Assembly (NCBI GenBank): GCA_009392915.1 | Contig: CP045477.1 | Span: 544,001 to 608,000, forward strand | DNA length: 64,000 nt | Source: Candidatus Forterrea multitransposorum CG_2015-17_Forterrea_25_41 | Lineage (GTDB): Archaea > Iainarchaeota > Iainarchaeia > Iainarchaeales > CSSED10-239 | Direction of reading: 5' to 3' | Shown here: piece after piece, positions 1 to 14,675 of the stretch | How the letters are laid out: each line of letters begins with the position of its first letter | How positions within the stretch are numbered: the first letter of the stretch is position 1 | Translations under genes and position numbers: made by a program | Notes under the pieces: generated by a model | What the model was told of the DNA's origin: nothing | Seen by the model: only the letters and a program-made list of their open reading frames with translations | The model's database searches: none

Positions 1-153
1 ATAAAAAAACCTTATCAAATTATGTATCAACTTATAAATATTATATATTACAATAAGTTTAAATACATATCATTTTAGATATCAAAATGGATATTAAATA
101 TAAATATCATTCTTTTTCGTCATAAGTTATCTATTGACTTAAAAGGTGATGTT

Positions 154-294
154 ATGTGTAGAGTTATATTTACTCTTCCCAAATATATAAAACAAAAATT
201 AGAAAAAATAGCAAAAGAAAAAAATACAACACAATCTGAATTGATTAGAGCCTCTCTTTATTTGTATTTAGATAAGGAGAGTGATAATAAATGA
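154..294 (+). CDS. Ribbon-helix-helix (CopG/Arc-like) DNA-binding protein, 46 aa (not in the ORF track)
   Basis: Translation is MCRVIFTLPKYIKQKLEKIAKEKNTTQSELIRASLYLYLDKESDNK: a beta-strand (VIFTLP) followed by two helices, the classic RHH pattern. A GGTGAT Shine-Dalgarno sits 5 nt upstream of the ATG at 154. The stop TGA overlaps the next ATG (ATGA at 291-294). Confidence 0.6.
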   Translation: MCRVIFTLPKYIKQKLEKIAKEKNTTQSELIRASLYLYLDKESDNK

Positions 295-923
295 TATTCT
301 CAAAAGCACATAAAACATATACTAGTTGGTTAAAATCAGCTAGTAAAACAAGATATACATTTAAAATCATTAGAAAACATTCAATATTTCCTAACTATAA
401 CTTAAAACAATTAAGAAATACTAAACTAAGTGGTTATTTTCTTAATAAAACAAATTGGAATAATTTAACTAATATTCAAAAAGCTAATAGAAAACAAGTA
501 ACAAACGCACTTAGACAAATAAGAAAGGGCTATTCATTAAAAGATGTTGTTAAAATTAATGGAATTAACAAAGAAACAATACAAAAACACTTAGGAAATT
601 ATCTATTCAAAAGAAAAGGCAAATGGCAAGTAAGAAAAACAGATAGATTACAACTAAAACTAATGATTTTTGAAAAAAGAATGTGTGCAAGAACAATAAT
701 TACTACAAATTCTAAAGATAGACAATTAATTGGTAAATATTTTGCTAATGTTAAACTAGCTCTTAGAGAAAATAACCCTTATTATCTAAAACAATTCAAA
801 AATAAGAAAATAATTGATGCTTATGGAAAAGCACATCATTTTGAAACAGATTTAGATAGATTAAAAATGTGTGAAGAAGCTATAGAAGAGCCAGAATATT
901 TGGAAATATATAGAAATAGATGA
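291..923 (+). CDS. Hypothetical protein with a putative HTH segment, element-encoded
   Basis: 210 aa and basic. An HTH-like stretch (SLKDVVKINGINKETIQKHL) is present. It is translationally coupled to the upstream RHH gene. Function unknown; a terminal-protein role is only speculation. Confidence 0.4.
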   Translation: MIFSKAHKTYTSWLKSASKTRYTFKIIRKHSIFPNYNLKQLRNTKLSGYFLNKTNWNNLTNIQKANRKQVTNALRQIRKGYSLKDVVKINGINKETIQKHLGNYLFKRKGKWQVRKTDRLQLKLMIFEKRMCARTIITTNSKDRQLIGKYFANVKLALRENNPYYLKQFKNKKIIDAYGKAHHFETDLDRLKMCEEAIEEPEYLEIYRNR

Positions 924-927
924 TATT

Positions 928-1248
928 ATGACTGAACAAATAGGCAGTGGTCTTTCTTGTTATCTTTGTGGAGAAGACCATCCAGCAGTAATTAAGAAAT
1001 TAGAATTACATCATATTGATGGTAAAGCTAATTCAAATACCACTGTTGCTATTTGTCAAAATTGTCATAATAAAATTACTTGTGAACAAAATAAACTATC
1101 TCCTAAATTGAGATCTAATAAAAATAAAGATTCTTTGATCAAGTTAGGTTATCAATTATTAAGTCACGGGGCTTTATTGAAGACTTTAGGAGAAACACAA
1201 ATAAAAATTGGAAAAGAGATGATTGAATATGAAAAAAATAATACTTAG
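928..1248 (+). CDS. HNH endonuclease
   Basis: Motifs CYLCGEDHP...LHHIDG...N...CQNCHNKI give two Cys pairs plus HH-N-H, an HNH zinc-finger nuclease signature. Its 3' end overlaps the PolB start. Confidence 0.6.
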   Translation: MTEQIGSGLSCYLCGEDHPAVIKKLELHHIDGKANSNTTVAICQNCHNKITCEQNKLSPKLRSNKNKDSLIKLGYQLLSHGALLKTLGETQIKIGKEMIEYEKNNT

Positions 1249-2791
1249 AGCATTTGCTAATGTTAATACAAATAAGAAAGACTATACTACAGAAATTAAA
1301 AAACATAGAAGAGTTTTAGTATTTGATACTGAAACAACTACTGATGAATATCAAAACCTTAAGATAGGGTTCTTTCAGGTTTATCAAGATAATATTAAGG
1401 TAAATGAAGGTTTATTCTATATAAATGACTTACCTAATGAAGATATTAAGGTTCTACAAAAATATTCTAGAACCTACCCTACCTCACTATATACCTTAGA
1501 TAAATTTAAAGATATATTCTATAAAGAAGTGTATAATAGAGGTACGTTATGTATTGGTTATAATCTAGCTTTTGATATATCTAGAATAGCTCAAAAATAT
1601 GGATATTCTAGAAAATATAATAAGGGTGGGTTTACATTTACTTTATCTAAGGATATAAACAAACCTCCTATAATTATTAAAAAATTAGGTGATGCTAATA
1701 CTTTTAAATTTCAAAGAAATATTGCTAATAAAGGTAAATCTTACAAAAGTGGTTATTTTTTAGATGTTCAAACAATATCTAAAATAATATTAGATAAGAG
1801 AAGGATTAGTTTAGATAAATCCTGTGAAATATTAAATACAACAACTAAAAAAATGAAAAATATCACACATGGAAAAATAACTAAACTTTATATTGATTAT
1901 TTAATTACTGATGTGAAGTCTACATTTGAAGTATATTTAGAATTATTAAAAGAATTTAAAAAATATGATATTGATATTCCATTAGAAAAAACATATAGTT
2001 CAGCATCTCTAGGTAAACAAGCATTAGCTCAATTAGGAATAAAATCTTTTTTTAATTGTAATCCGAATTTTAGTAAAGAATTAATCGGAATTATAATGTC
2101 TACTTATTATGGTGGAAGATGTGAATGTGTTTATAGAAAAAAACCAGTTAAAATTGATTATCTTGATTTTACTTCAATGTATCCTACTATTACCTTATTA
2201 TATGGTATTTGGGACTTTATAATTGCAGAACAAATAACTACTGAAGATGTTACTGATGAAATAAAAAATTTAGTTGAGAATATAGATTTAGAAAGTTTAA
2301 AAAATAAAGAATTATTTAGACAATTTAATGTACTTGTGAAAATTAAACCAAACAAAGATTTATTGCCAATTAGATTTGATTATAAAAACAAAAATGAAAA
2401 TAATAACTTAGGATTAAATTATCTTACAAGTGATAAAGAATTATGGTATACTTTACCGGATATAATTTCATCAAAAATACTAACTGGAAAAGCACCTCAA
2501 ATACTTGAAGCTATTAGATTTAAACCCAATGGAATACAAAGTGATCTTAAAAAATCTAAAATTGTTGGAGTAAATATAAACCCTAAGAAAGAAAATTTAA
2601 TTAAAATTTGTGTAGATAAAAGACAAGAAATTAAAAAAGAGATAAAAGAGTTAAAAAAAGATGATTTAGAATCTAAAAGACTTGATGGTATTCAGAGAGC
2701 CCTTAAAATTTTAGTTAATACTTTTAGTTATGGTATATTTATTGAATTAAATCCTAAAGAGGTAAAAAATAACATTAAATTTATGGTTTAA
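1223..2791 (+). CDS. Protein-primed family B DNA polymerase, N-terminal part (3'-5' exonuclease plus pol motifs A and B)
   Basis: Exo I is VLVFDTETTTDEY (DxE). Exo II is YNLAFDISRI. Exo III is YIDYLITDV (Yx3D). A YxGG-like motif is YYGGRCE. Motif A is LDFTSMYPT (DxxSxYPS). Motif B is KILVNTFSYGIF (Kx3NSxYG). The ORF stops shortly after motif B. Confidence 0.7.
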   Translation: MNMKKIILRAFANVNTNKKDYTTEIKKHRRVLVFDTETTTDEYQNLKIGFFQVYQDNIKVNEGLFYINDLPNEDIKVLQKYSRTYPTSLYTLDKFKDIFYKEVYNRGTLCIGYNLAFDISRIAQKYGYSRKYNKGGFTFTLSKDINKPPIIIKKLGDANTFKFQRNIANKGKSYKSGYFLDVQTISKIILDKRRISLDKSCEILNTTTKKMKNITHGKITKLYIDYLITDVKSTFEVYLELLKEFKKYDIDIPLEKTYSSASLGKQALAQLGIKSFFNCNPNFSKELIGIIMSTYYGGRCECVYRKKPVKIDYLDFTSMYPTITLLYGIWDFIIAEQITTEDVTDEIKNLVENIDLESLKNKELFRQFNVLVKIKPNKDLLPIRFDYKNKNENNNLGLNYLTSDKELWYTLPDIISSKILTGKAPQILEAIRFKPNGIQSDLKKSKIVGVNINPKKENLIKICVDKRQEIKKEIKELKKDDLESKRLDGIQRALKILVNTFSYGIFIELNPKEVKNNIKFMV

Positions 2792-3804
2792 ATGAATTTT
2801 CTTCTGATGTAAAACATATAGAAAATATTGGTAAATATTTCAATCCTATATTAGGCACGATAATAACCTCAGGAGCAAGATTATTTTTAGCTATAGCTCA
2901 ATCAATTACAGAAAAACAAGGGTATAAGCACGTTTATATGGATACAGACAGTATTTTAGTTCCTATTGAGGTATCTAGTAAGGTAATAAATTATTTTAAA
3001 CCTTTAAATCCTTATTCTTCAGATATAGCTTTACTTAAAAAAGAGAAAGAAGATGTATGTTTCTATGGTATTTGTAGTAAAAGATATTGTTTATATAATT
3101 TTAAAAATAAAAAAATTGAACTTATGGATTATAAATTACATGGTTTAGGGCATCTTATTAATCCTTGGAGTAATAAAAAGGATTGGCATAAGGATGTTTG
3201 GTTAGATATATTGAATTTACATTATAATTATATTACATCAGCAGAAATTTATGAAAAATATTCTGTAGTTTATGGAATATCTAGATTTACAGTATCTACT
3301 CCACATTTAATTAAGAGATTTAATACAATTAATAATGATAGACCTTATGAAGAACAAATTAAACCATCTAATTTTTTTTATTTAGGGTTTTCTGTAAATA
3401 AGAATAATTCTGTAAAACCATTAGTGCCTTTTGGAGGAAATCCTCAAAAGTTGGTTTATGATGAATTTATTGATTATAATACTGGAAAGGTAATGCAAGG
3501 TTGTGAGTATTGGAAACCTTTAGGAAATACAATCTTAGAGTATATTGATCATTCAGAGTATAAGTTAGATGGGGGTATTGGGCAATTAGAAAGAAAACAT
3601 ATTGTTTGTAATGATATTCAGTATATAGGAAAAGAAGCAAACAATATTGATGAAGAAGCTATATCTTCTTTTAAACCTATTGAGTATAAGAACAATAATC
3701 AGTTTAAGAAGGATCTTAGGTCATTGAATAATAAGGAGTTGATGCAAAAGTACCATTTCAAGACTAGGAGTCACATCAAGTATTGGAGAGATAAATTATT
3801 CTAA
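2779..3804 (+). CDS. Protein-primed family B DNA polymerase, C-terminal part (Tx2GR, motif C, KxY). It lies in the -1 frame relative to the N-terminal part.
   Basis: The frame is open from 2779: IYWLNEFSSDVKHIENIGKYFNPILGTIITSGARLFLAIAQSITEKQGYKHVYMDTDSILV. ITSGAR is the Tx2G/AR motif of protein-priming PolBs. YMDTDSI is motif C (YxDTDS). KRYCLY is KxY-like. The two parts together would give about 860 aa. The first ATG is at 2938. Confidence 0.65.
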   Translation: MYGLNEFSSDVKHIENIGKYFNPILGTIITSGARLFLAIAQSITEKQGYKHVYMDTDSILVPIEVSSKVINYFKPLNPYSSDIALLKKEKEDVCFYGICSKRYCLYNFKNKKIELMDYKLHGLGHLINPWSNKKDWHKDVWLDILNLHYNYITSAEIYEKYSVVYGISRFTVSTPHLIKRFNTINNDRPYEEQIKPSNFFYLGFSVNKNNSVKPLVPFGGNPQKLVYDEFIDYNTGKVMQGCEYWKPLGNTILEYIDHSEYKLDGGIGQLERKHIVCNDIQYIGKEANNIDEEAISSFKPIEYKNNNQFKKDLRSLNNKELMQKYHFKTRSHIKYWRDKLF

Positions 3805-5013
3805 CGATTCATATTCATAGCAATGTTTTTTTTTAGTATTTTTAATAACTAATCTTTTATCCATATCTTTATAAACTTCAGGAGGCATAAAAGTATTTTT
3901 ACCAAAAGTTACAAAATTATATTTAGTCATATCCTTAATATCTGTTTTTAAAACACCTATAATAAATGATAATTTTTGTTTAGTTTTATAATATAAAGTC
4001 CAACAAGTAAATTTATTTTTAATTAAAATATCATCTTTTTTACCATTTGAAAAAGCGCAATAAATACCAAAATCAAAATTATCCCAACCTAAAAATCTTT
4101 GGACATAATTTTTATTAGATTTTTTAAATTCAATGTATTTCTTAAATATTTCAATACCAAAATTACATTTTTGAAATGAATTTAATTTTAAAATTTGTTC
4201 AATAAATAAATAATCATCTTGCGATTCACACTTTTCTAATTGAAATATTAAGTCATCTATAAATACACTATATTTTTCATTATTCTTTTTAATATCTAGT
4301 TGATTTTTTAAAAACTCTTTATAATTAAATTCATCAAATAATATTAAACTCGCATCAACCCACTTTTTTGTAAGTTCAGCAATACCGTCTTTATTTTGTA
4401 AGTAAATACCTAATATATTTCTTTCTGAATCTAATAAATTATTTTTATTTATGATTAGTTCTCTTTTATCTAAATAATCTATGAAGTCAACAGGTGTGTG
4501 TATATAATTTATAATTTCATTTATTTCTGTATAATTAAAAATATGTGGCATTATTTTAATATTTGATGATTCTTTTTGTGTAATTGATAACAATCCTTTA
4601 TTTGCTAATTCATAATTTCCATTATTAATAACAACACCATAGATTTTCTTAATTTTTTTAAAATTACTATTTGTTAATTTTATATTTTCATTAAATTTAT
4701 TTTTAATATTCACATGAATTTTATTTTCTTTGATTCTATTTATACTTGCACGTAATTGTTTTGTTGGATTGTATATAGCTTTTTGTATATATCTTTTATC
4801 GATAATATCATGTATTTTTGTTTTTATTTGAATAATTATAGCAACATCATTTAATAAAATAATGAAATCGCATAACTCTTTATTATTTTCTAATTGTGGA
4901 TTTGGAAAAACAAAATATTTATGAAAAATAGGTTGTAAAATATTATTATATATTTTTTCTTCAAAAGAATCTTTAAAGTTATAATTATTATTCATAAATA
5001 AATAATATTGCAA
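3796..5013 (-). CDS. Hypothetical protein with a possible PD-(D/E)xK / NERD-like nuclease motif
   Basis: 405 aa. The N-terminal segment CDFIILLNDVAIIIQIKTK resembles a D...(E/Q)xK restriction-endonuclease-fold core. The rest is unassignable by eye. Confidence 0.3.
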   Translation of the reverse strand: MQYYLFMNNNYNFKDSFEEKIYNNILQPIFHKYFVFPNPQLENNKELCDFIILLNDVAIIIQIKTKIHDIIDKRYIQKAIYNPTKQLRASINRIKENKIHVNIKNKFNENIKLTNSNFKKIKKIYGVVINNGNYELANKGLLSITQKESSNIKIMPHIFNYTEINEIINYIHTPVDFIDYLDKRELIINKNNLLDSERNILGIYLQNKDGIAELTKKWVDASLILFDEFNYKEFLKNQLDIKKNNEKYSVFIDDLIFQLEKCESQDDYLFIEQILKLNSFQKCNFGIEIFKKYIEFKKSNKNYVQRFLGWDNFDFGIYCAFSNGKKDDILIKNKFTCWTLYYKTKQKLSFIIGVLKTDIKDMTKYNFVTFGKNTFMPPEVYKDMDKRLVIKNTKKKHCYEYESLE

Positions 5014-5126
5014 AATATGTATAAATATTACTATTAGAACAAACGTACAAAAATAATTAGATATATATAACCCGGCTTCTTTTTATTATTTTATTTTCAC
5101 TCTTTGAAAGTTTTTTATTCTTTTCT

Positions 5127-5423
5127 ATGAATAAAGATTACAACAATTACATTATTTCAGTAATAGGAGGATTAACAACTGGTTTTATAATTATTATAAT
5201 TCCAGAATTATTAAAAGTTATATTTGATAAAAATATAAAACTATTTATTAAAATTATTTTTCTAATTGGGATGATATTATTTTTAATATGGAGTTTATTG
5301 TTTGTAGGAAATAAATTCTTTTTAAAACAAAAAAAACGTACTAAAGAATTAAACAAATTAATAATAACAAGTATTATATTTATTCTTATTAATATTATAT
5401 TAGAGTGCTTAATAAATCTGTAA
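5127..5423 (+). CDS. Small hydrophobic membrane protein (hypothetical)
   Basis: 98 aa with two or three predicted TM helices. It is preferred over the antisense 69-aa ORF because it is longer and more hydrophobic. Confidence 0.3.
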   Translation: MNKDYNNYIISVIGGLTTGFIIIIIPELLKVIFDKNIKLFIKIIFLIGMILFLIWSLLFVGNKFFLKQKKRTKELNKLIITSIIFILINIILECLINL

Positions 5424-5508: not shown

Positions 5509-6387
5509 TTAATGATAATGCACAGATAACGTTAAAACTCCCGCTTCTTTATATTCACCACGATAATTTTTTACATGCCCATGATAATGATATTTAAAAT
5601 TACATTTCTTTTTTAAATCATATATATTAATTGATCCTAAATTGTAAAACGTAATACCAGGACAGTGAGATACAAAAATTGTTTTATTACTAAAATAAGT
5701 TCTAAAAAAATCAATTCGTTTTTTATCCATTCTCAAACTATTATCAATTGAAGAAATATATTTTTCTTTACCAGATTTATCAGAATTAACTCCTGTTAAA
5801 TATAAATCTTTATTTAAATATATTAGTTCTAAATCCATAGGATTATAAAAATTAGGGTTATTTATAATTTTATAAATTATTGGAATATTATTAAAATAAT
5901 TATTTAATTCCATTAAATCTCCATTAAAAAATGAACCCATAATATATTTTCTTTGAGGAAAAGCCAATATACTATCGTGATTTCCAGAATAAAATAATAT
6001 TCTTATGTCTTTTTTAACACAATAATTTTCAAAATCAATAAAATTATCAATCTCATTTTTATTTTTAGAATAAATTAATTCAGATAGTAAATTACCAAAA
6101 TCTTCTGAAGTAATATTAAGTAAATTATTTTTATTTTTGTTTAAATAATCATACACTTGAAATTCATTCCAATAAGATTTTAAAAAAGAAAAAATATCTC
6201 CTAAAAACACAACTAATTTAATTTTTTTAGCACATAAAATTTTAATTAACTTTTTTTTTATTATTAAAGAAAATCTTTCAATATCTGATATAAAATAAAT
6301 TTCATCTAATTCAATATCTTTATTAAATAAACGATGAAAATCAAATTTTATATTAATTAAATTAGGCACTATTTTTTTATCCTTCAA
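5509..6387 (-). CDS. Calcineurin-like metallophosphoesterase
   Basis: Ordered MPE motifs: DxH-like (FDFHRLF), GD (FLGDIFS), GNHD (YSGNHDS), GH (HYHGHV). Confidence 0.6.
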   Translation of the reverse strand: MKDKKIVPNLINIKFDFHRLFNKDIELDEIYFISDIERFSLIIKKKLIKILCAKKIKLVVFLGDIFSFLKSYWNEFQVYDYLNKNKNNLLNITSEDFGNLLSELIYSKNKNEIDNFIDFENYCVKKDIRILFYSGNHDSILAFPQRKYIMGSFFNGDLMELNNYFNNIPIIYKIINNPNFYNPMDLELIYLNKDLYLTGVNSDKSGKEKYISSIDNSLRMDKKRIDFFRTYFSNKTIFVSHCPGITFYNLGSINIYDLKKKCNFKYHYHGHVKNYRGEYKEAGVLTLSVHYH

Positions 6388-6438
6388 TATTTATCTCCCC
6401 TATATACTTATTCACATTAAACAATATATTCAAAAATA

Positions 6439-7047
6439 TTATTTATAAAGTTTTATTCCTTCCAAAAGATCTATTCCAATAGATTTTTTTACTGCAATTT
6501 CCCTTATATATGAAACTATAGATTTATCTAAACAATCCCAATATCCAAATTTATCTATTAAATAAGCAATTAATTGAAAATACATATATTCAAATCTATA
6601 ATCTTCCTCATAATATAATGGGAAATGAATAAAATTATTTCTTTGATTTCCAATTAAATTAAATAAACTTTCGATTAATTCTTTATTTGAATCTTTATTA
6701 TTAATAATATATGAAAATAACTTAAATTTTAATTTACCTAAAGTTCTATTTTTAATTGGTATTTGTAAATAATTTATTGGATCTTTATCAATTAATATTA
6801 TTTTAACTAATCCTTCAACACAAATATTTAACAAAATAATATGAGAAATTTCCTCTGTAGTAGAATCTTCTTTTAATTTTTTATAATTATTTAACAAAAA
6901 TTTAAATTGCTTAAATAAATTAGCTATAAATTTTTGTTTTTTTTCATCTACATCAACTTTATCTAATAATTTACATTCCATAATTAAAGAGAGTTTTTGT
7001 AACTCTTTTAAACGATTATTTAATTCTTTAACCATAATTTCACACAT
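6439..7047 (-). CDS. Hypothetical protein with a HEPN-like Rx4H motif
   Basis: 202 aa, helical. GNQRNNFIHFPLY contains R-x4-H. Nothing else is recognisable. Confidence 0.35.
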   Translation of the reverse strand: MCEIMVKELNNRLKELQKLSLIMECKLLDKVDVDEKKQKFIANLFKQFKFLLNNYKKLKEDSTTEEISHIILLNICVEGLVKIILIDKDPINYLQIPIKNRTLGKLKFKLFSYIINNKDSNKELIESLFNLIGNQRNNFIHFPLYYEEDYRFEYMYFQLIAYLIDKFGYWDCLDKSIVSYIREIAVKKSIGIDLLEGIKLYK

Positions 7048-7065
7048 TTATTTTATAAATTTAAT

Positions 7066-7935
7066 TTATTTAATTAAATCAGATATTTTAACACTTAACA
7101 CATAACCAATTCTTGAAAGGTCTTTTGTTTCAATATTAATTACTCTTAAATTATTGTTTTCTAAAATCTTATTTTTATTTGCATATCTTTTTATTTCTTT
7201 ATTTCTTTTTTCTTCATTTAATGAATTTAATCCTCCATTAAATTCAATATAAATATCTTCTTTAGGTAAATAAAAATCAATTAATCTATATTCTGCTTTA
7301 TCACCTTTTAAAAAATCAACATAATATTCAGGAATATACCTAATTTTTAATTCTTGCAGAGAAAGTGCAACTAATTTTTCTCCTTCACTCCTAGTTTTCA
7401 AATAATTTTCTTTATTAATAGTTTTTAATTTTTTTTTATTAATATCTAATAACCAATTTACATACCATTGATAGGTATCCCATTGATCCCATTTTTCTCC
7501 TGCATAAAAATGTTTAGATTCATTATCTTTTCTATAATAAAATCTTCTCCAATCATGAGGAGTAGTTTTTATAATAAATGTAGTTTGTTTATCTTTTTTA
7601 ATATAAACATCCTCTTTATTAACTACTAAATGTTTCATATGATTAGGAAACATTTTTTCAGAACCTGGTTTTTCAATATTTGGATCATATCCACAAGCTA
7701 AATGAAAATGAATAGTAACTTTATTTATTTTTATATTTGCACAAAATTTTTTATCATCAATAATTACACAGTATGGTTCTGAAGGAAACCAATCTTTAAC
7801 CATATCTTGAAAAATTTCGGATGCTTTAGAATATTGACAATCTTTCTTAAATTTATCATATTTTTTTTTATCATACCTAGCATTAATTAATCTTTCTGAA
7901 TTTGTTAATTTGTAATCCTTTAATAAATAACTCAT
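7066..7935 (-). CDS. Hypothetical protein with a C-terminal DUF559/Vsr-like (PD-(D/E)xK) endonuclease-like segment
   Basis: C-terminal RLIDFYLPKEDIYIEFNGGLN...RNKEIKRYANKNKILENNNLRVINIE resembles the D...IExDG core of DUF559/very-short-patch-repair-like domains. N-terminal 200 aa unknown. Confidence 0.35.
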   Translation of the reverse strand: MSYLLKDYKLTNSERLINARYDKKKYDKFKKDCQYSKASEIFQDMVKDWFPSEPYCVIIDDKKFCANIKINKVTIHFHLACGYDPNIEKPGSEKMFPNHMKHLVVNKEDVYIKKDKQTTFIIKTTPHDWRRFYYRKDNESKHFYAGEKWDQWDTYQWYVNWLLDINKKKLKTINKENYLKTRSEGEKLVALSLQELKIRYIPEYYVDFLKGDKAEYRLIDFYLPKEDIYIEFNGGLNSLNEEKRNKEIKRYANKNKILENNNLRVINIETKDLSRIGYVLSVKISDLIK

Positions 7936-7945
7936 AATAACCCTC

Positions 7946-8515
7946 TTATCTTTTTTTAAAATTTCTTTTTCTTGAATGATTAAATTTAGAATTCTTATTA
8001 AAGCGACTAGATAAATTAGAAGGCTGTCTTTTAAAAGATCTAAATTTATTTACTTTTCTCTTTAAATAATGTGTAATTGTATAATATTTAATAAAATTTA
8101 AAATAATTATTGCAATTAAAATATAAATTAATAATTCTAAAATTAAAGAAAATAATGAAAAATCACTTAAATTAAGTATTATTTTTACAAATAAACCAAT
8201 AATAGGAATTAATAATAAACTAATATAAATTTCAATTAAAAAAAATCTATTTTTCGAATCTAATAAATACAGTCCACGTAACAGATTTTTGATAAAACTA
8301 ATAATTGTTTTAATAATTACAATAAATATAACTATTAAAGAAATAGAAAAATAAATTGTTTTTTTTATTTCACTAAGATTTGAAGATTTTATTAAAATAT
8401 TAATTAAAATAAAAAAAATCAATGTTGAGCAATAATATAAAAGGTTATTTTTATTTTCATTCCAAAAACGATGCCAAATATCTTTATGTAAAAAACTTTT
8501 ATGTTTTTTAATCAT
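7946..8515 (-). CDS. Polytopic membrane protein with a basic C-terminal tail (hypothetical)
   Basis: Four or five hydrophobic helices, then an R/K-rich tail. Confidence 0.35.
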   Translation of the reverse strand: MIKKHKSFLHKDIWHRFWNENKNNLLYYCSTLIFFILINILIKSSNLSEIKKTIYFSISLIVIFIVIIKTIISFIKNLLRGLYLLDSKNRFFLIEIYISLLLIPIIGLFVKIILNLSDFSLFSLILELLIYILIAIIILNFIKYYTITHYLKRKVNKFRSFKRQPSNLSSRFNKNSKFNHSRKRNFKKR

Positions 8516-11402: not shown

Positions 11403-12779
11403 ATGCTACAAATATTTTATATAGATATCTTAAAAAAAAGAATAATTATGGAAAATATAATAGATAGAGTAAAACCTTTAAATAACTTTAAAGAAATAAA
11501 AGATAAACAAGAGATTGTTTACTGGATGACAAGAGAACAAAGAGTTGAAGATAACTACTCTCTTTTATTTGCAGACTATCTTTCAAAAAAACATAACTGT
11601 AAACTAAAAGTAATATTTACTTTAGTAGAAAAGTTTCTAGAATCACAAGAAAAACAATTTATCTTTATGCTTGAAGGTTTAAAAGAAGTTGAAGAAAAGC
11701 TTAATAACCTAGGAATTGAATTTATTATTTTAAAAGGAAAAGAACCTTTTAAAGAAATAACAAATTATATTAATAAAAATAAAATATCTGCACTAGTTAC
11801 AGATTTAGATCCATTAAAAATAAAGGTTAAATGGAGAGAAGAAGTATTAAAAGAAATAAAAATACCTTTTTTTATGGTAGATTCACATAATATAGTGCCT
11901 ATTGAAATTGCATCTAAAAAACAAGAGTATGCAGCATATACTCTAAGACCAAAAATTAATCATTTACTTGGAAGTTATTTAAAAGAAATTCCAAAGATTA
12001 AAAAAAGAGAACAAAAAACAGATTATAAAAATGATTTTAAAAAATTAATTAAAGAAAAACAAGATTATTCTTTTATTTCTGGAGAAAAAGCTTCTAGAAA
12101 AATATTAAAAGACTTTATTGAAAATAAACTTAACGATTATTCAACATTAAGAAACGATCCTTCAAGAAACTTTCAATCAAATCTTTCACCTTATCTTCAT
12201 TTTGGACAAATTTCTTCACAAAGAATAGCTTTAGAAGTTTTAAAATCAGAAAAAAACGAAGAAAGTAAGAAAGCTTTTTTAGAAGAACTAATTGTTAGAA
12301 AAGAATTGTCTGATAATTATTGTTATTATAACAAAGATTATGATAACTATAATGGTTTTCCTGATTGGGCAAAAAGAACTATAGAAGAACATAAGGATGA
12401 TAAAAGAGAATATCTCTATTCACTTAAAGAACTACAAGACTCTAAAACACATGACATCTTATGGAATTCATGTCAAAAAGAAATGGTATTGACAGGTAAA
12501 ATGCATGGTTACCTAAGAATGTATTGGGCAAAAAAGATTTTAGAATGGACAAAAGATATTAAAGAAGCTCAAGAATTTGCAATATTTTTAAATGATAAAT
12601 ATAGTTTAGATGGAAGAGATGCTAATGGATATACAGGGATTGCTTGGTCTCTTGGCGGGGTACATGATAGAGCATGGAATGAAAGAAGTATTTTTGGAAA
12701 AATAAGATTTATGAGTTTTAATTCAACTTCTAAAAAATTTAATCTTAAAGGATATTTAGAAAAAATAGAAAAAATATAG
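11403..12779 (+). CDS. phr: Class II CPD photolyase (deoxyribodipyrimidine photo-lyase)
   Basis: VYWMTREQRVEDNYSLLFA matches the class II N-terminus. The C-terminal FAD-binding region is MHGYLRMYWAKKILEW...GRDANGYTGIAWSLGGVHDRAWNERSIFGKIRFMS. The likely real start is the internal Met at 11448 (MENIIDRVK). Confidence 0.85.
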   Translation: MLQIFYIDILKKRIIMENIIDRVKPLNNFKEIKDKQEIVYWMTREQRVEDNYSLLFADYLSKKHNCKLKVIFTLVEKFLESQEKQFIFMLEGLKEVEEKLNNLGIEFIILKGKEPFKEITNYINKNKISALVTDLDPLKIKVKWREEVLKEIKIPFFMVDSHNIVPIEIASKKQEYAAYTLRPKINHLLGSYLKEIPKIKKREQKTDYKNDFKKLIKEKQDYSFISGEKASRKILKDFIENKLNDYSTLRNDPSRNFQSNLSPYLHFGQISSQRIALEVLKSEKNEESKKAFLEELIVRKELSDNYCYYNKDYDNYNGFPDWAKRTIEEHKDDKREYLYSLKELQDSKTHDILWNSCQKEMVLTGKMHGYLRMYWAKKILEWTKDIKEAQEFAIFLNDKYSLDGRDANGYTGIAWSLGGVHDRAWNERSIFGKIRFMSFNSTSKKFNLKGYLEKIEKI

Positions 12780-13544: not shown

Positions 13545-14675
13545 TTATATTTTATGAGTATATACTTTATTAATATAATTATAGATTATTTTTGATTTAG
13601 AAGAATCTATTCCTTGTATTTTTGAAATATCAGATAAATTTAAACTTTTAATAGTTTTTAATGAATTTTGAGAATTAATTAAACTATTAATAGTTTTTTC
13701 ATCTATTTCTGTTATTTTAGAAAAAAATCTATAACCTCTAGGGAAATCAAATTCTTTTTGAGAAGTAAAATTTGAAAGTTCTAAGATATCTATTAACTTT
13801 TCTGTATCTGCAATTTTTCTAATACCTAGTTGTTTTAGAAAATTTATTTTTTCTAAACATTCTTCTTTTAGATATATATTGTTAGAATAATCTTTTAAAA
13901 TTAAATATAATTCTTCTTCAAGACCATATGTAATTTCATAAAAAGAATTAGAAATATCTTGACCTTGAGAACCAAGCTCTACTATTAAATCATCAACTTG
14001 AGTTTCATTTTTGAAAAAATATAAAATATTCTGTATTAAATCTAAAACTTCTGTTTTTAGATTATTTGATAAAATAATTTCTAAATCATATAAATTTTTA
14101 ATTTTTTTATCAATCTTTGATCTAAAATCTTTTAAATTGTTAATTGCATAACTTGCTTTTACCATTAAAATATTAAAATCTTGTAAAACATATTTTTGAT
14201 CTTTATAATAAAGAGAAATAACATTTCTTCTATGTGAAATTGCAATAACAGGTAAATCAGATTGCATTGCTGTTTGTTCAGCTGATCGATGTCTCATTCC
14301 TGTCTCTTTTGAAGAAATATCTCTATCTGGCATTAAATGTTTATTTGCACCTACAATCTTTGTTAAATCATTTGAAAGAACTATAGCTCCATCCATTTTT
14401 GAAAGTTCAAAAAGCTTTTGAGAAGAAAAAGGAATATCTAAATCAATTCCTCCTTTTAAAATAGGTTTTAACTTATCTGAATCACCTAAAACTATTAAAG
14501 CACCTAAGTTACCATGTAAAATTTCATCCAAACCACTCCTTAATTCTGTTCCAGGAGTTACAAGAGGGAGTATTTTAGTAATATCAATAACATCATTTTC
14601 ATGTATTTGACTGATTAATTTTGATTGAAAATCTTCTTCTTGAATAAAAACTTTTTTTTTTGGTCTTGTAGGCAT
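13545..14675 (-). CDS. DisA/DacZ-like diadenylate cyclase (c-di-AMP synthase, DAC domain)
   Basis: DAC motifs GALIVLGD, DGAIVLS, KHLMPDRD...ETGMRHRSAEQTA...LPVIAISHRRNVISLYY. The RHR motif and ISLYY closely match DisA-type DAC domains. Confidence 0.7.
   Translation of the reverse strand: MPTRPKKKVFIQEEDFQSKLISQIHENDVIDITKILPLVTPGTELRSGLDEILHGNLGALIVLGDSDKLKPILKGGIDLDIPFSSQKLFELSKMDGAIVLSNDLTKIVGANKHLMPDRDISSKETGMRHRSAEQTAMQSDLPVIAISHRRNVISLYYKDQKYVLQDFNILMVKASYAINNLKDFRSKIDKKIKNLYDLEIILSNNLKTEVLDLIQNILYFFKNETQVDDLIVELGSQGQDISNSFYEITYGLEEELYLILKDYSNNIYLKEECLEKINFLKQLGIRKIADTEKLIDILELSNFTSQKEFDFPRGYRFFSKITEIDEKTINSLINSQNSLKTIKSLNLSDISKIQGIDSSKSKIIYNYINKVYTHKI

What the first reader, a model, noticed from the sequence alone, without database searches (positions are those of the whole stretch)
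5509..8515. Four-gene minus-strand islet next to the element (metallophosphoesterase, Rx4H HEPN-like protein, PD-(D/E)xK-like protein, membrane protein), a candidate defence or addiction module
These tightly spaced, same-strand genes encode a calcineurin-like phosphoesterase (DxH/GD/GNHD/GH motifs), a 202-aa helical protein with an R-x4-H HEPN-type motif, a 289-aa protein whose C-terminus resembles the DUF559/Vsr endonuclease core, and a polytopic membrane protein. None has an obvious housekeeping role. They lie immediately beside an integrated element, where defence and abortive-infection cargo is usually found. The combination does not correspond to a named system that I recognise.
Basis: inference. 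Interest (0 to 1): 0.55.

Follow-up and report, generated by a model that had tools for sequence, protein, structure and literature searches.

The report
Mixed nuclease gene islet beside a casposon
Four real, tightly packed genes in a tiny-genome archaeon sit just outside a casposon, and they look like a local pile-up of separate single-gene defence or toxin candidates, because their relatives never occur together in any other genome examined.

Summary
Window 5509-8515 carries four minus-strand ORFs with gaps of 51, 18 and 10 nt, in a 22% GC DPANN-type archaeon. They encode a metallophosphoesterase variant, a HEPN-like helical protein, a two-domain protein with a Vsr-like nuclease C-terminus, and a 4-TM protein with a basic tail. 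One detail is wrong: the phosphoesterase's conserved motif I is S-D-I-E, not DxH.

The neighbouring element is a casposon inserted into the 3' end of tRNA-Thr. It has 36-nt terminal inverted repeats (TIRs) and a perfect 14-bp target site duplication (TSD). The islet starts 421 nt outside that duplication, so it is not casposon cargo.

The single-module interpretation fails its own test. Across about 17 independent foreign loci, profile HMMs never find two of the three families together.

Each family does keep defence-type company:
- HEPN-like relatives lie inside type I restriction-modification (R-M) operons in 3 loci, once directly behind an MNT gene.
- Nuclease relatives lie next to type I R-M and Cas4-like genes.
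- Phosphoesterase relatives lie next to type III R-M, GmrSD and Mrr genes.

No known PADLOC system matches. My best reading is a lineage-specific islet of independent single-gene conflict effectors. Interest is modest.

The parts
5509..6387 (-). 292-aa calcineurin-like metallophosphoesterase variant. Motif I is S-D-I-E instead of DxH. GD, GNHD, SHxPG and HYHGH are conserved. The metagenome gene call starts at 6369 instead.
   Evidence: Pfam PF00149 E=7.3e-5, 23.7 bits against cut-off 21.5. Family alignment A3 gives the invariant motifs. Homologues P0035-P0038 and L033-L038.
6439..7047 (-). 202-aa all-helical HEPN-like protein. It has an N-terminal helical hairpin (residues 2-61) and a HEPN-type core (residues about 68-190). 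E78-x3-K82 lies in the first core helix. R136-N-x-F-x-H141 lies at the end of the third core helix.
7426..7935 (-). N-terminal domain (residues about 1-170) of the 289-aa protein. It is a family-specific, beta-rich, aromatic-rich domain of unknown fold, with conserved DWFPSxPY, FCANIK and HFHLxCGY. I presume it is the target-recognition module.
   Evidence: Alignment A2. AF2 secondary structure. This domain is found in only 4 representative clusters plus one fragment among 1.84 billion representatives. No Pfam or PDB sequence match.
7066..7425 (-). C-terminal Vsr-like (divergent PD-(D/E)xK) nuclease domain (residues about 171-289). E186, D220, E231, N233, G234 and E247 are invariant. No histidine is conserved.
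7946..8515 (-). 189-aa membrane protein with four predicted TM segments (about 25-43, 53-75, 91-113, 119-149) and a lysine/arginine-rich C-terminal tail. It is the first gene of the putative operon.
   Evidence: ORF. Hydropathy scan. No significant family hits.
5127..5423 (+). 98-aa ORF with three hydrophobic segments, lying between the casposon target duplication and the islet and convergent with it. It is not called as a gene on the source contig, so its status is uncertain.
   Evidence: Absent from the gene calls.
5074..5087 (+). Right copy of the 14-bp casposon target site duplication, GGCTTCTTTTTATT. The left copy overlaps the 3' end of tRNA-Thr(TGT), just beyond the left edge of the window.
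   Evidence: The match is exact, 14 of 14.
5038..5073 (.). Right terminal inverted repeat of the casposon (...TATAACCC). Its partner, GGGTTATA..., is at L002 6416-6451.
   Evidence: the repeat finder pair I20, 36 nt, 78% complementary. Sequences.
1..5037 (.). Right-hand portion of the casposon body. It holds a 210-aa ORF, an HNH protein (928-1248), a frameshifted family B DNA polymerase (1223-2791 and 2938-3804) and a 405-aa ORF (3796-5013, minus strand). Cas1 lies left of the window.
   Evidence: Cas1 PF01867 in gene calls. PHROG HNH and DNA polymerase hits. Frameshift.

Best explanation
The four genes are real and probably co-transcribed. Internal Shine-Dalgarno-like GAGGG and GGGGAG sequences lie before the second and fourth genes. 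The genes sit in host DNA downstream of tRNA-Thr, 421 nt outside a casposon that later inserted into the tRNA's 3' end.

They are not one conserved system. I read them as a lineage-specific juxtaposition of independently distributed, compact conflict-type effectors.

(a) The 202-aa protein is a HEPN-fold RNase. By analogy with HEPN toxins and abortive-infection proteins, it would dimerise and use R136/H141 to cut RNA, leaving 2',3'-cyclic phosphate ends. This would arrest translation when unleashed.

(b) The 289-aa protein is a two-domain DNA endonuclease. A family-specific N-terminal domain would choose the target. A Vsr-like domain with an acidic/Asn active site (E186, D220, E231, N233, E247) would cut it.

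(c) The 292-aa protein is a binuclear-metal phosphoesterase with a DxE variant of motif I. Its substrate is unknown, possibly nucleic-acid ends or a nucleotide.

(d) The 4-TM protein with a basic tail may tether or regulate the nuclease.

Shown here: the gene structure, the domain and fold assignments, the lack of co-occurrence, and the defence-type neighbourhoods of relatives. Inferred: all enzymatic activities, the operon, and the defence role.
For: No co-occurrence: profile HMMs for the three families hit the same locus only in the window's own genome, among 44 loci fetched. tblastn gave the same result.

HEPN assignment:
- The RNxFxH and E78xxxK82 motifs are invariant.
- Their placement matches the published HEPN definition: Rx4-6H at the end of helix 3, a polar residue after R, and Ex3[KR] in the first helix (PMC3710099; helices).
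- Relatives sit between hsdM and hsdS in L007, L024/L025 and L031. In L024/L025 the gene overlaps an upstream NTP_transf_2 (MNT) gene by 4 nt.

Phosphoesterase: relatives lie directly downstream of a type III R-M (L033), next to Mrr_cat and a resolvase (L034), next to a resolvase (L036), and in a block with GmrSD, an MmeI-like methyltransferase and HsdS (L010).

Background: DPANN archaea are reported to be poor in R-M and CRISPR and enriched in compact single-gene candidates found by guilt-by-embedding (PMC12988326).
Against: - No activity or phenotype is known for any of the families.
- No PADLOC model matches a full-length protein.
- HEPN support is sub-threshold by sequence. Foldseek is not significant, with best E 2.1. 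hhalign against HEPN proteins from the loci found nothing.
- Roughly half of the foreign contexts show no recognisable defence genes (L013, L015, L022, L028, L018, L044).
- Many contigs are short, so absence of partners is tested only within 2-10 kb.
- The tight same-strand packing in this genome could still reflect a functional link that evolved locally.
- All 24 population contigs read carry the islet, so I could not show that it is accessory.
Confidence: 0.5

Rival explanations
1. The four genes form one integrated defence or addiction module: a membrane sensor, a DNA nuclease, a HEPN RNase and a phosphoesterase acting together, possibly specific to this lineage.
For: Same strand, gaps of 10-51 nt, and internal ribosome-binding-like sequences. 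REase-fold plus HEPN combinations are a recurring theme in the HEPN literature (PMC3710099). HEPN RNases leave cyclic-phosphate ends that a phosphoesterase could process (established knowledge, then inference).
Against: None of about 17 independent loci with a relative of one gene contains a relative of another. The closest relative of the nuclease (71% identity, L003) has entirely different neighbours. No PADLOC multi-gene system matches.
Confidence: 0.08
2. Only the first two genes form a unit. The 4-TM protein and the Vsr-like nuclease would be a split version of a membrane-anchored nuclease. The HEPN and phosphoesterase genes would be independent neighbours.
For: Of the 146 best representative proteins sharing the nuclease domain, 104 carry one or more predicted TM segments C-terminal to it. 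The two genes are 10 nt apart. Small TM proteins also lie beside relatives in L011 and L017.
Against: The full-length 289-aa family itself has no TM segments. The neighbouring TM proteins in other loci are not detectably homologous to the 189-aa protein. Small TM ORFs are common in such AT-rich genomes. L003, L018 and L044 have no adjacent TM gene on the same strand.
Confidence: 0.15
3. The genes have no defence role. They would be unrelated lineage-specific genes, for example nucleic-acid turnover or scavenging enzymes of a host-dependent archaeon, or selfish nuclease genes, that happen to be adjacent.
For: About half of the foreign contexts lack defence genes. The best structural match of the nuclease domain is a homing endonuclease. 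Phosphoesterases and nucleases are plausible salvage enzymes in organisms that lack nucleotide synthesis (inference).
Against: No signal peptides are evident at the N-termini (sequence). Relatives are repeatedly embedded in or next to R-M operons, and one is paired with an MNT gene. The strictly conserved HEPN catalytic motif is typical of toxins. No relatives of the HEPN or phosphoesterase families, and only three domain-level nuclease matches, were found in 2.9 million viral contigs. That argues against a phage homing-endonuclease lifestyle.
Confidence: 0.22
4. The islet is the decayed remnant of an older mobile element that used the same tRNA-Thr site before the casposon arrived.
For: It lies directly downstream of a tRNA gene that is a proven integration site. 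Its GC content is 18.8% against 23.6% for the rest of the window. Phosphoesterase relatives sit next to serine recombinases in L034 and L036.
Against: There is no integrase and no second copy of the tRNA 3' end or att-like repeat in the window. The only extra partial TSD-like matches are at chance level. GC3 matches that of host genes.
Confidence: 0.12

Closest known systems
HEPN superfamily RNase toxins, including R-M-embedded HEPN genes and HEPN/MNT (type VII) toxin-antitoxin pairs
   Different: No Pfam HEPN model reaches threshold. The protein has an extra N-terminal helical hairpin. There is no MNT or other antitoxin-type partner in this window. RNase activity is untested.
Vsr / EDxHD (I-Bth0305I) / DUF559-type divergent PD-(D/E)xK endonucleases
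   Different: No histidine is conserved at the position of Vsr His69 / I-Bth0305I His213. No NUMOD or HTH motifs were detected. The gene is not in an intron or intein. The N-terminal domain is unique to about 4 clusters at 50% identity.
PADLOC candidate single-gene systems PDC-S69 and HEAT_CxxC_PD-DExK
   Same: All 12 family members match the C-terminal nuclease part of these models (best E 1.5e-10 and 1.5e-6).
   Different: Only about 60-65 residues of models of about 289 positions align. The N-terminal parts are unrelated, so this is domain sharing and not membership.
Calcineurin-like metallophosphoesterases (PF00149; Icc/YfcE-type)
   Same: The match is above the Pfam gathering score. The GD, GNHD, H and GH motifs are invariant.
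   Different: Motif I is D-x-E, not D-x-H, in every family member. No PDB relative is detectable by sequence. The substrate is unknown.
Defence islands and guilt-by-embedding candidates in archaea (PMC12988326)
   Same: Nuclease-type genes are clustered next to a mobile-element insertion site. Relatives are embedded in R-M operons. The genes are compact single-gene candidates in a DPANN genome.
   Different: No recognised defence system is present in the islet, and no experimental support exists.

Membership tests
HEPN superfamily | Conserved Rx4-6H motif with a polar residue after the Arg | tested here: met
   R136-N137-x-F139-x-H141 is invariant in 21 sequences. Definition from PMC3710099.
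HEPN superfamily | Conserved acidic residue in the first core helix, typically Ex3[KR] | tested here: met
   E78 and K82 are invariant and lie in helix 68-88 of the model.
HEPN superfamily | Rx4-6H located at the end of helix 3 of a four-helix up-and-down bundle | tested here: met
   R136 ends helix 122-137 and H141 lies in the following short element. This rests on a predicted model, pLDDT 84.
HEPN superfamily | Significant structural or profile similarity to known HEPN domains | tested here: inconclusive
HEPN/MNT toxin-antitoxin (type VII) | Minimal nucleotidyltransferase gene immediately upstream of the HEPN gene | tested here: not met
   The upstream gene in the window is the 289-aa nuclease, and no NTase was found. 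The feature is met only for a homologue in L024/L025.
Calcineurin-like metallophosphoesterase (PF00149) | Pfam model above the gathering score | tested here: met
   23.7 bits against 21.5, E 7.3e-5. The margin is small.
Calcineurin-like metallophosphoesterase (PF00149) | Motif I D-x-H | tested here: not met
   The family-invariant motif is S-D-I-E (D35, E37). Glu could still bind metal (inference).
Calcineurin-like metallophosphoesterase (PF00149) | Motifs II-V (GD, GNH[DE], H, GH) | tested here: met
   G63-D64, G135-N136-H137-D138, H241 and G270-H271 are invariant.
Vsr-like / EDxHD / DUF559 nucleases | Vsr-type restriction-endonuclease-like fold | tested here: met
Vsr-like / EDxHD / DUF559 nucleases | Catalytic Asp plus flanking acidic and Asn residues | tested here: met
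   E186, D220, E231, N233 and E247 are invariant. The spacing equals that of I-Bth0305I E170, D196, N208 and D222 (PMC3239194). The correspondence is inferred from spacing, not from a residue-level structural alignment.
Vsr-like / EDxHD / DUF559 nucleases | Conserved histidine general base (Vsr His69 / I-Bth0305I His213) | tested here: not met
   No histidine is conserved between N233 and E247 in the 12 family members. The wider family's consensus has Trp there.
PADLOC PDC-S69 | Full-length match to the model | tested here: not met
   Only residues 218-285 align, to model positions 221-282 of 289.
Any named multi-gene defence system (PADLOC-DB v2) | Two or more islet proteins matching components of one system | tested here: not met
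   Only the nuclease gives significant hits. The phosphoesterase, the HEPN-like protein and the TM protein give none.
Casposon (the neighbouring element) | Cas1 casposase, family B polymerase, terminal inverted repeats and a target site duplication of about 14-15 bp, often at a tRNA 3' end | tested here: met
   Cas1 PF01867. PolB and HNH. 36-nt TIRs. Exact 14-bp TSD overlapping the tRNA-Thr 3' end. The polymerase gene is frameshifted.

The most novel reading that the evidence does not exclude
The nuclease domain of the 289-aa protein belongs to a large family with no Pfam model: at least 878 clusters at 50% identity. Most members are membrane-anchored Vsr-like nucleases. The 4-TM gene plus the nuclease gene here would be a split form of that design. 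With the downstream HEPN RNase and phosphoesterase they would form a previously undescribed membrane-associated, dual DNA/RNA-targeting immune cassette of DPANN archaea.
Probability: 0.08. Interest if true: 0.6.

Novelty: new member of a known kind. Interest (0 to 1): 0.33.

Why it matters
DPANN archaea have tiny genomes and few recognised immune systems, so any compact effector genes they keep are informative.

This locus gives three small, unnamed families with clear catalytic signatures and defence-type neighbourhoods elsewhere:
- a HEPN-like RNase
- a His-less Vsr-like nuclease with a unique N-terminal domain
- a DxE-variant phosphoesterase

These could be tested as single-gene defence or toxin candidates.

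The work also shows that adjacency to a mobile element and tight packing are not enough to call a multi-gene system. If the pile-up reading is correct, the finding is an ordinary small defence-type islet rather than a new system.

Tried and rejected
- **PDB sequence and profile searches.** The three family alignments found nothing useful.
- **Foldseek.** The search of the HEPN-like model against the PDB was not significant.
- **hhalign.** The HEPN-like family did not match the HEPN-type proteins encoded in the foreign loci, nor the 326-aa neighbour in L007.
- **GTDB species genomes.** A scan for the nuclease family found none.
- **Viral contigs.** Scans found no relatives of the HEPN-like or phosphoesterase families, and only three domain-level nuclease hits.
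- **Strain variants lacking the islet.** Looked for through the flanking DUF1328 gene; all contigs read share the same arrangement.
- **Second att-like copy of the tRNA-Thr 3' end.** None found. Weak TSD-like matches are near chance level.
- **Islet as casposon cargo.** Rejected because of the TIR and TSD positions.
- **Cas4-like PDDEXK_1 partner.** It accompanies two nuclease relatives but has no counterpart in the window.
- **EMARD.** A literature search returned only author names.
- **Promoter and terminator scans.** Not used, because the tool models bacterial sigma-70 sites and this is an archaeon with 20% GC.
Full report
**1. Setting**

The window is 23% GC. It matches a 231-kb metagenome contig and NCBI assembly GCA_009993835.1, which is labelled 'archaeon'. 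Relatives of the islet proteins come mostly from Pacearchaeota and Woesearchaeota MAGs. The host is therefore a DPANN-type archaeon.

**2. Observation**

The ORF listing finds the four minus-strand ORFs exactly where stated:
- 5509-6387 (292 aa)
- 6439-7047 (202 aa)
- 7066-7935 (289 aa)
- 7946-8515 (189 aa)

The gaps are 51, 18 and 10 nt. Independent gene calls on the source contig agree, apart from alternative starts for the first two proteins. Read on the minus strand, GAGGG precedes the 289-aa start and GGGGAG precedes the 292-aa start. This fits an operon that begins with the membrane-protein gene, but that is inference.

**3. The neighbouring element is a casposon, and the islet lies outside it**

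I extended leftwards with L002, where window position w equals L002 position w + 9710. The following features are present:
- a Cas1 gene (PF01867), an HNH gene and a family B polymerase
- tRNA-Thr(TGT) at L002 6332-6407
- 36-nt terminal inverted repeats: GGGTTATA... at L002 6416-6451 and ...TATAACCC at window 5038-5073 (pair I20)
- an exact 14-bp direct repeat, GGCTTCTTTTTATT, overlapping the tRNA 3' end and again at window 5074-5087

This is the classic casposon signature described in PMC4046053 and PMC5137440 (listed). The 405-aa ORF at 3796-5013 is inside the element. The islet begins 421 nt beyond the duplication, so it is host-side DNA and not cargo.

No second copy of the tRNA 3' end exists in the window. 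The islet is somewhat AT-richer than the rest (18.8% against 23.6% GC), but its GC3 is host-like.

**4. The proteins**

*Phosphoesterase (292 aa).* Pfam Metallophos is just above threshold, at 23.7 bits against 21.5. In the five-member alignment, GD, GNHD, SHxPG and HYHGH are invariant. Motif I is S-D-I-E in every member. No PDB relative is detectable by sequence.

*HEPN-like protein (202 aa).*
- Twenty-one relatives share invariant R136-N-x-F-x-H141 and E78-x3-K82.
- The AF2 model (pLDDT 84) is all-helical. E78 and K82 lie in helix 68-88, and R136 lies at the end of helix 122-137.
- These are the features given for HEPN domains in PMC3710099.
- Foldseek is not significant, and Pfam HEPN hits are sub-threshold.
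- I rate HEPN as probable, not proven.

*Two-domain nuclease (289 aa).*
- Invariant E186, D220, E231, N233 and E247 have the spacing of the I-Bth0305I active-site residues (PMC3239194). The histidine general base is missing.
- The N-terminal 170 residues form a conserved, beta-rich, aromatic-rich domain with no match anywhere.
- An exhaustive profile search found the full architecture in only four clusters at 50% identity. The nuclease domain alone occurs in 878.
- No Pfam model covers that wider family.
- Of its 146 best representatives, 104 have TM segments C-terminal to the nuclease domain.
- PADLOC PDC-S69 and HEAT_CxxC_PD-DExK match only the nuclease part.

*Membrane protein (189 aa).* It has four hydrophobic segments and a Lys/Arg-rich tail. 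It has no informative family hits.

**5. Co-occurrence test**

I fetched genomic contexts for relatives of each family.

| Family | Loci |
|---|---|
| Nuclease | L003-6, L011-12, L017, L018, L044 |
| HEPN-like | L007-9, L013-16, L019-32 |
| Phosphoesterase | L010, L033-38 |

That makes about 17 independent loci. Neither tblastn with the window proteins nor hmmsearch with family profiles over all six-frame ORFs finds two families in one locus. The only exception is the window's own genome.

The nearest nuclease relative (71% identity) has completely different neighbours.

**6. What the neighbours say**

*HEPN-like relatives* lie between hsdM and hsdS in three loci:
- L007, which also carries a PF05168 HEPN gene and a 326-aa protein with an RNKISH motif
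- L024/L025
- L031

In L024/L025 the gene overlaps an upstream 124-aa NTP_transf_2 gene by 4 nt, the canonical MNT-HEPN arrangement.

*Nuclease relatives* lie next to type I R-M and a Cas4-like PDDEXK_1 gene in two loci. One lies next to SLFN_AlbA_2, DUF3800, HicB and Fic genes. One lies next to another PD-(D/E)xK-type protein.

*Phosphoesterase relatives* lie downstream of a type III R-M (L033), beside Mrr_cat and resolvase genes (L034, L036), and in a GmrSD/MmeI-like/HsdS block (L010).

Roughly half of the contexts show nothing recognisable. A 2026 survey reports that DPANN archaea are enriched in compact single-gene candidates found by embedding in R-M operons (PMC12988326). That fits these families.

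**7. Conclusion**

The islet is best read as a lineage-specific cluster of independently distributed, single-gene conflict-type effectors downstream of a tRNA integration hotspot. The casposon is a later, unrelated arrival.

Confidence is about 0.5. All activities are inferred, and a purely non-defence reading is not excluded.

The most interesting residual possibility is that the TM gene and the nuclease form a split membrane-anchored nuclease, perhaps working with the two downstream enzymes. I put that at under 10% for the full four-gene cassette and about 15% for the two-gene version.

Noticed in passing
window 1-5087 plus L002 6332-9710 (left of the window): A complete casposon of about 8.4 kb in a DPANN-type archaeon, inserted at the 3' end of tRNA-Thr(TGT). 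It has 36-nt TIRs, an exact 14-bp TSD, and Cas1, HNH and PolB genes.
   Followed up: yes
window 2780-2800: The casposon's family B polymerase is split into two ORFs (1223-2791 and 2938-3804) by a single frameshift between motif B (KILVNTFSYG) and motif C (YMDTDS). The other frame reads straight through. The 520-aa and 288-aa gene calls are the same on both contigs shown, and the other population contigs were grouped with them as similar places. It could be a decaying element, or a recoding site at AAATTTATGG.
   Followed up: partly
window 3796-5013 (minus strand): A 405-aa casposon-borne ORF with no family hits. Its N-terminus has a PD-(D/E)xK/NERD-like pattern (CDFIILL...AIIIQIKTK). It may be nuclease cargo of the casposon.
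   Followed up: no
proteins P0039-P0184: The Vsr-like nuclease domain defines a family of at least 878 clusters at 50% identity with no Pfam model. 104 of the 146 best representatives carry 1-3 predicted TM segments after the nuclease domain, so most members appear to be membrane-anchored nuclease-fold proteins.
   Followed up: partly
L007 964-9179: A type I R-M operon with three inserted genes between or after the hsd genes. They are a 326-aa protein with an RNKISH (Rx4H) motif, the 213-aa HEPN-like relative, and a PF05168 HEPN protein.
   Followed up: partly
L011 2910-4581 and L017 6300-8014: Two relatives of the 289-aa nuclease are paired with a Cas4-like PDDEXK_1 gene. The two PDDEXK_1 genes are 50% identical to each other, the gene order is reversed between the loci, and both pairs sit beside type I R-M. 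This may be a two-gene unit that is absent from the window.
   Followed up: partly
window 13545-14675 (minus strand): A full-length DisA-type diadenylate cyclase (NCBIfam PRK13482, E 9e-95) in an archaeal genome, next to a class II photolyase (11403-12779).
   Followed up: no
L033 9098-9658 and L034 6752-7318: A conserved protein of about 187 aa with no family hit (MxxxxxWxxxKAxGNIAExIVxFLI...) lies near the phosphoesterase relatives in two unrelated MAGs, a Pacearchaeota archaeon and an Ignavibacteriaceae bacterium.
   Followed up: no
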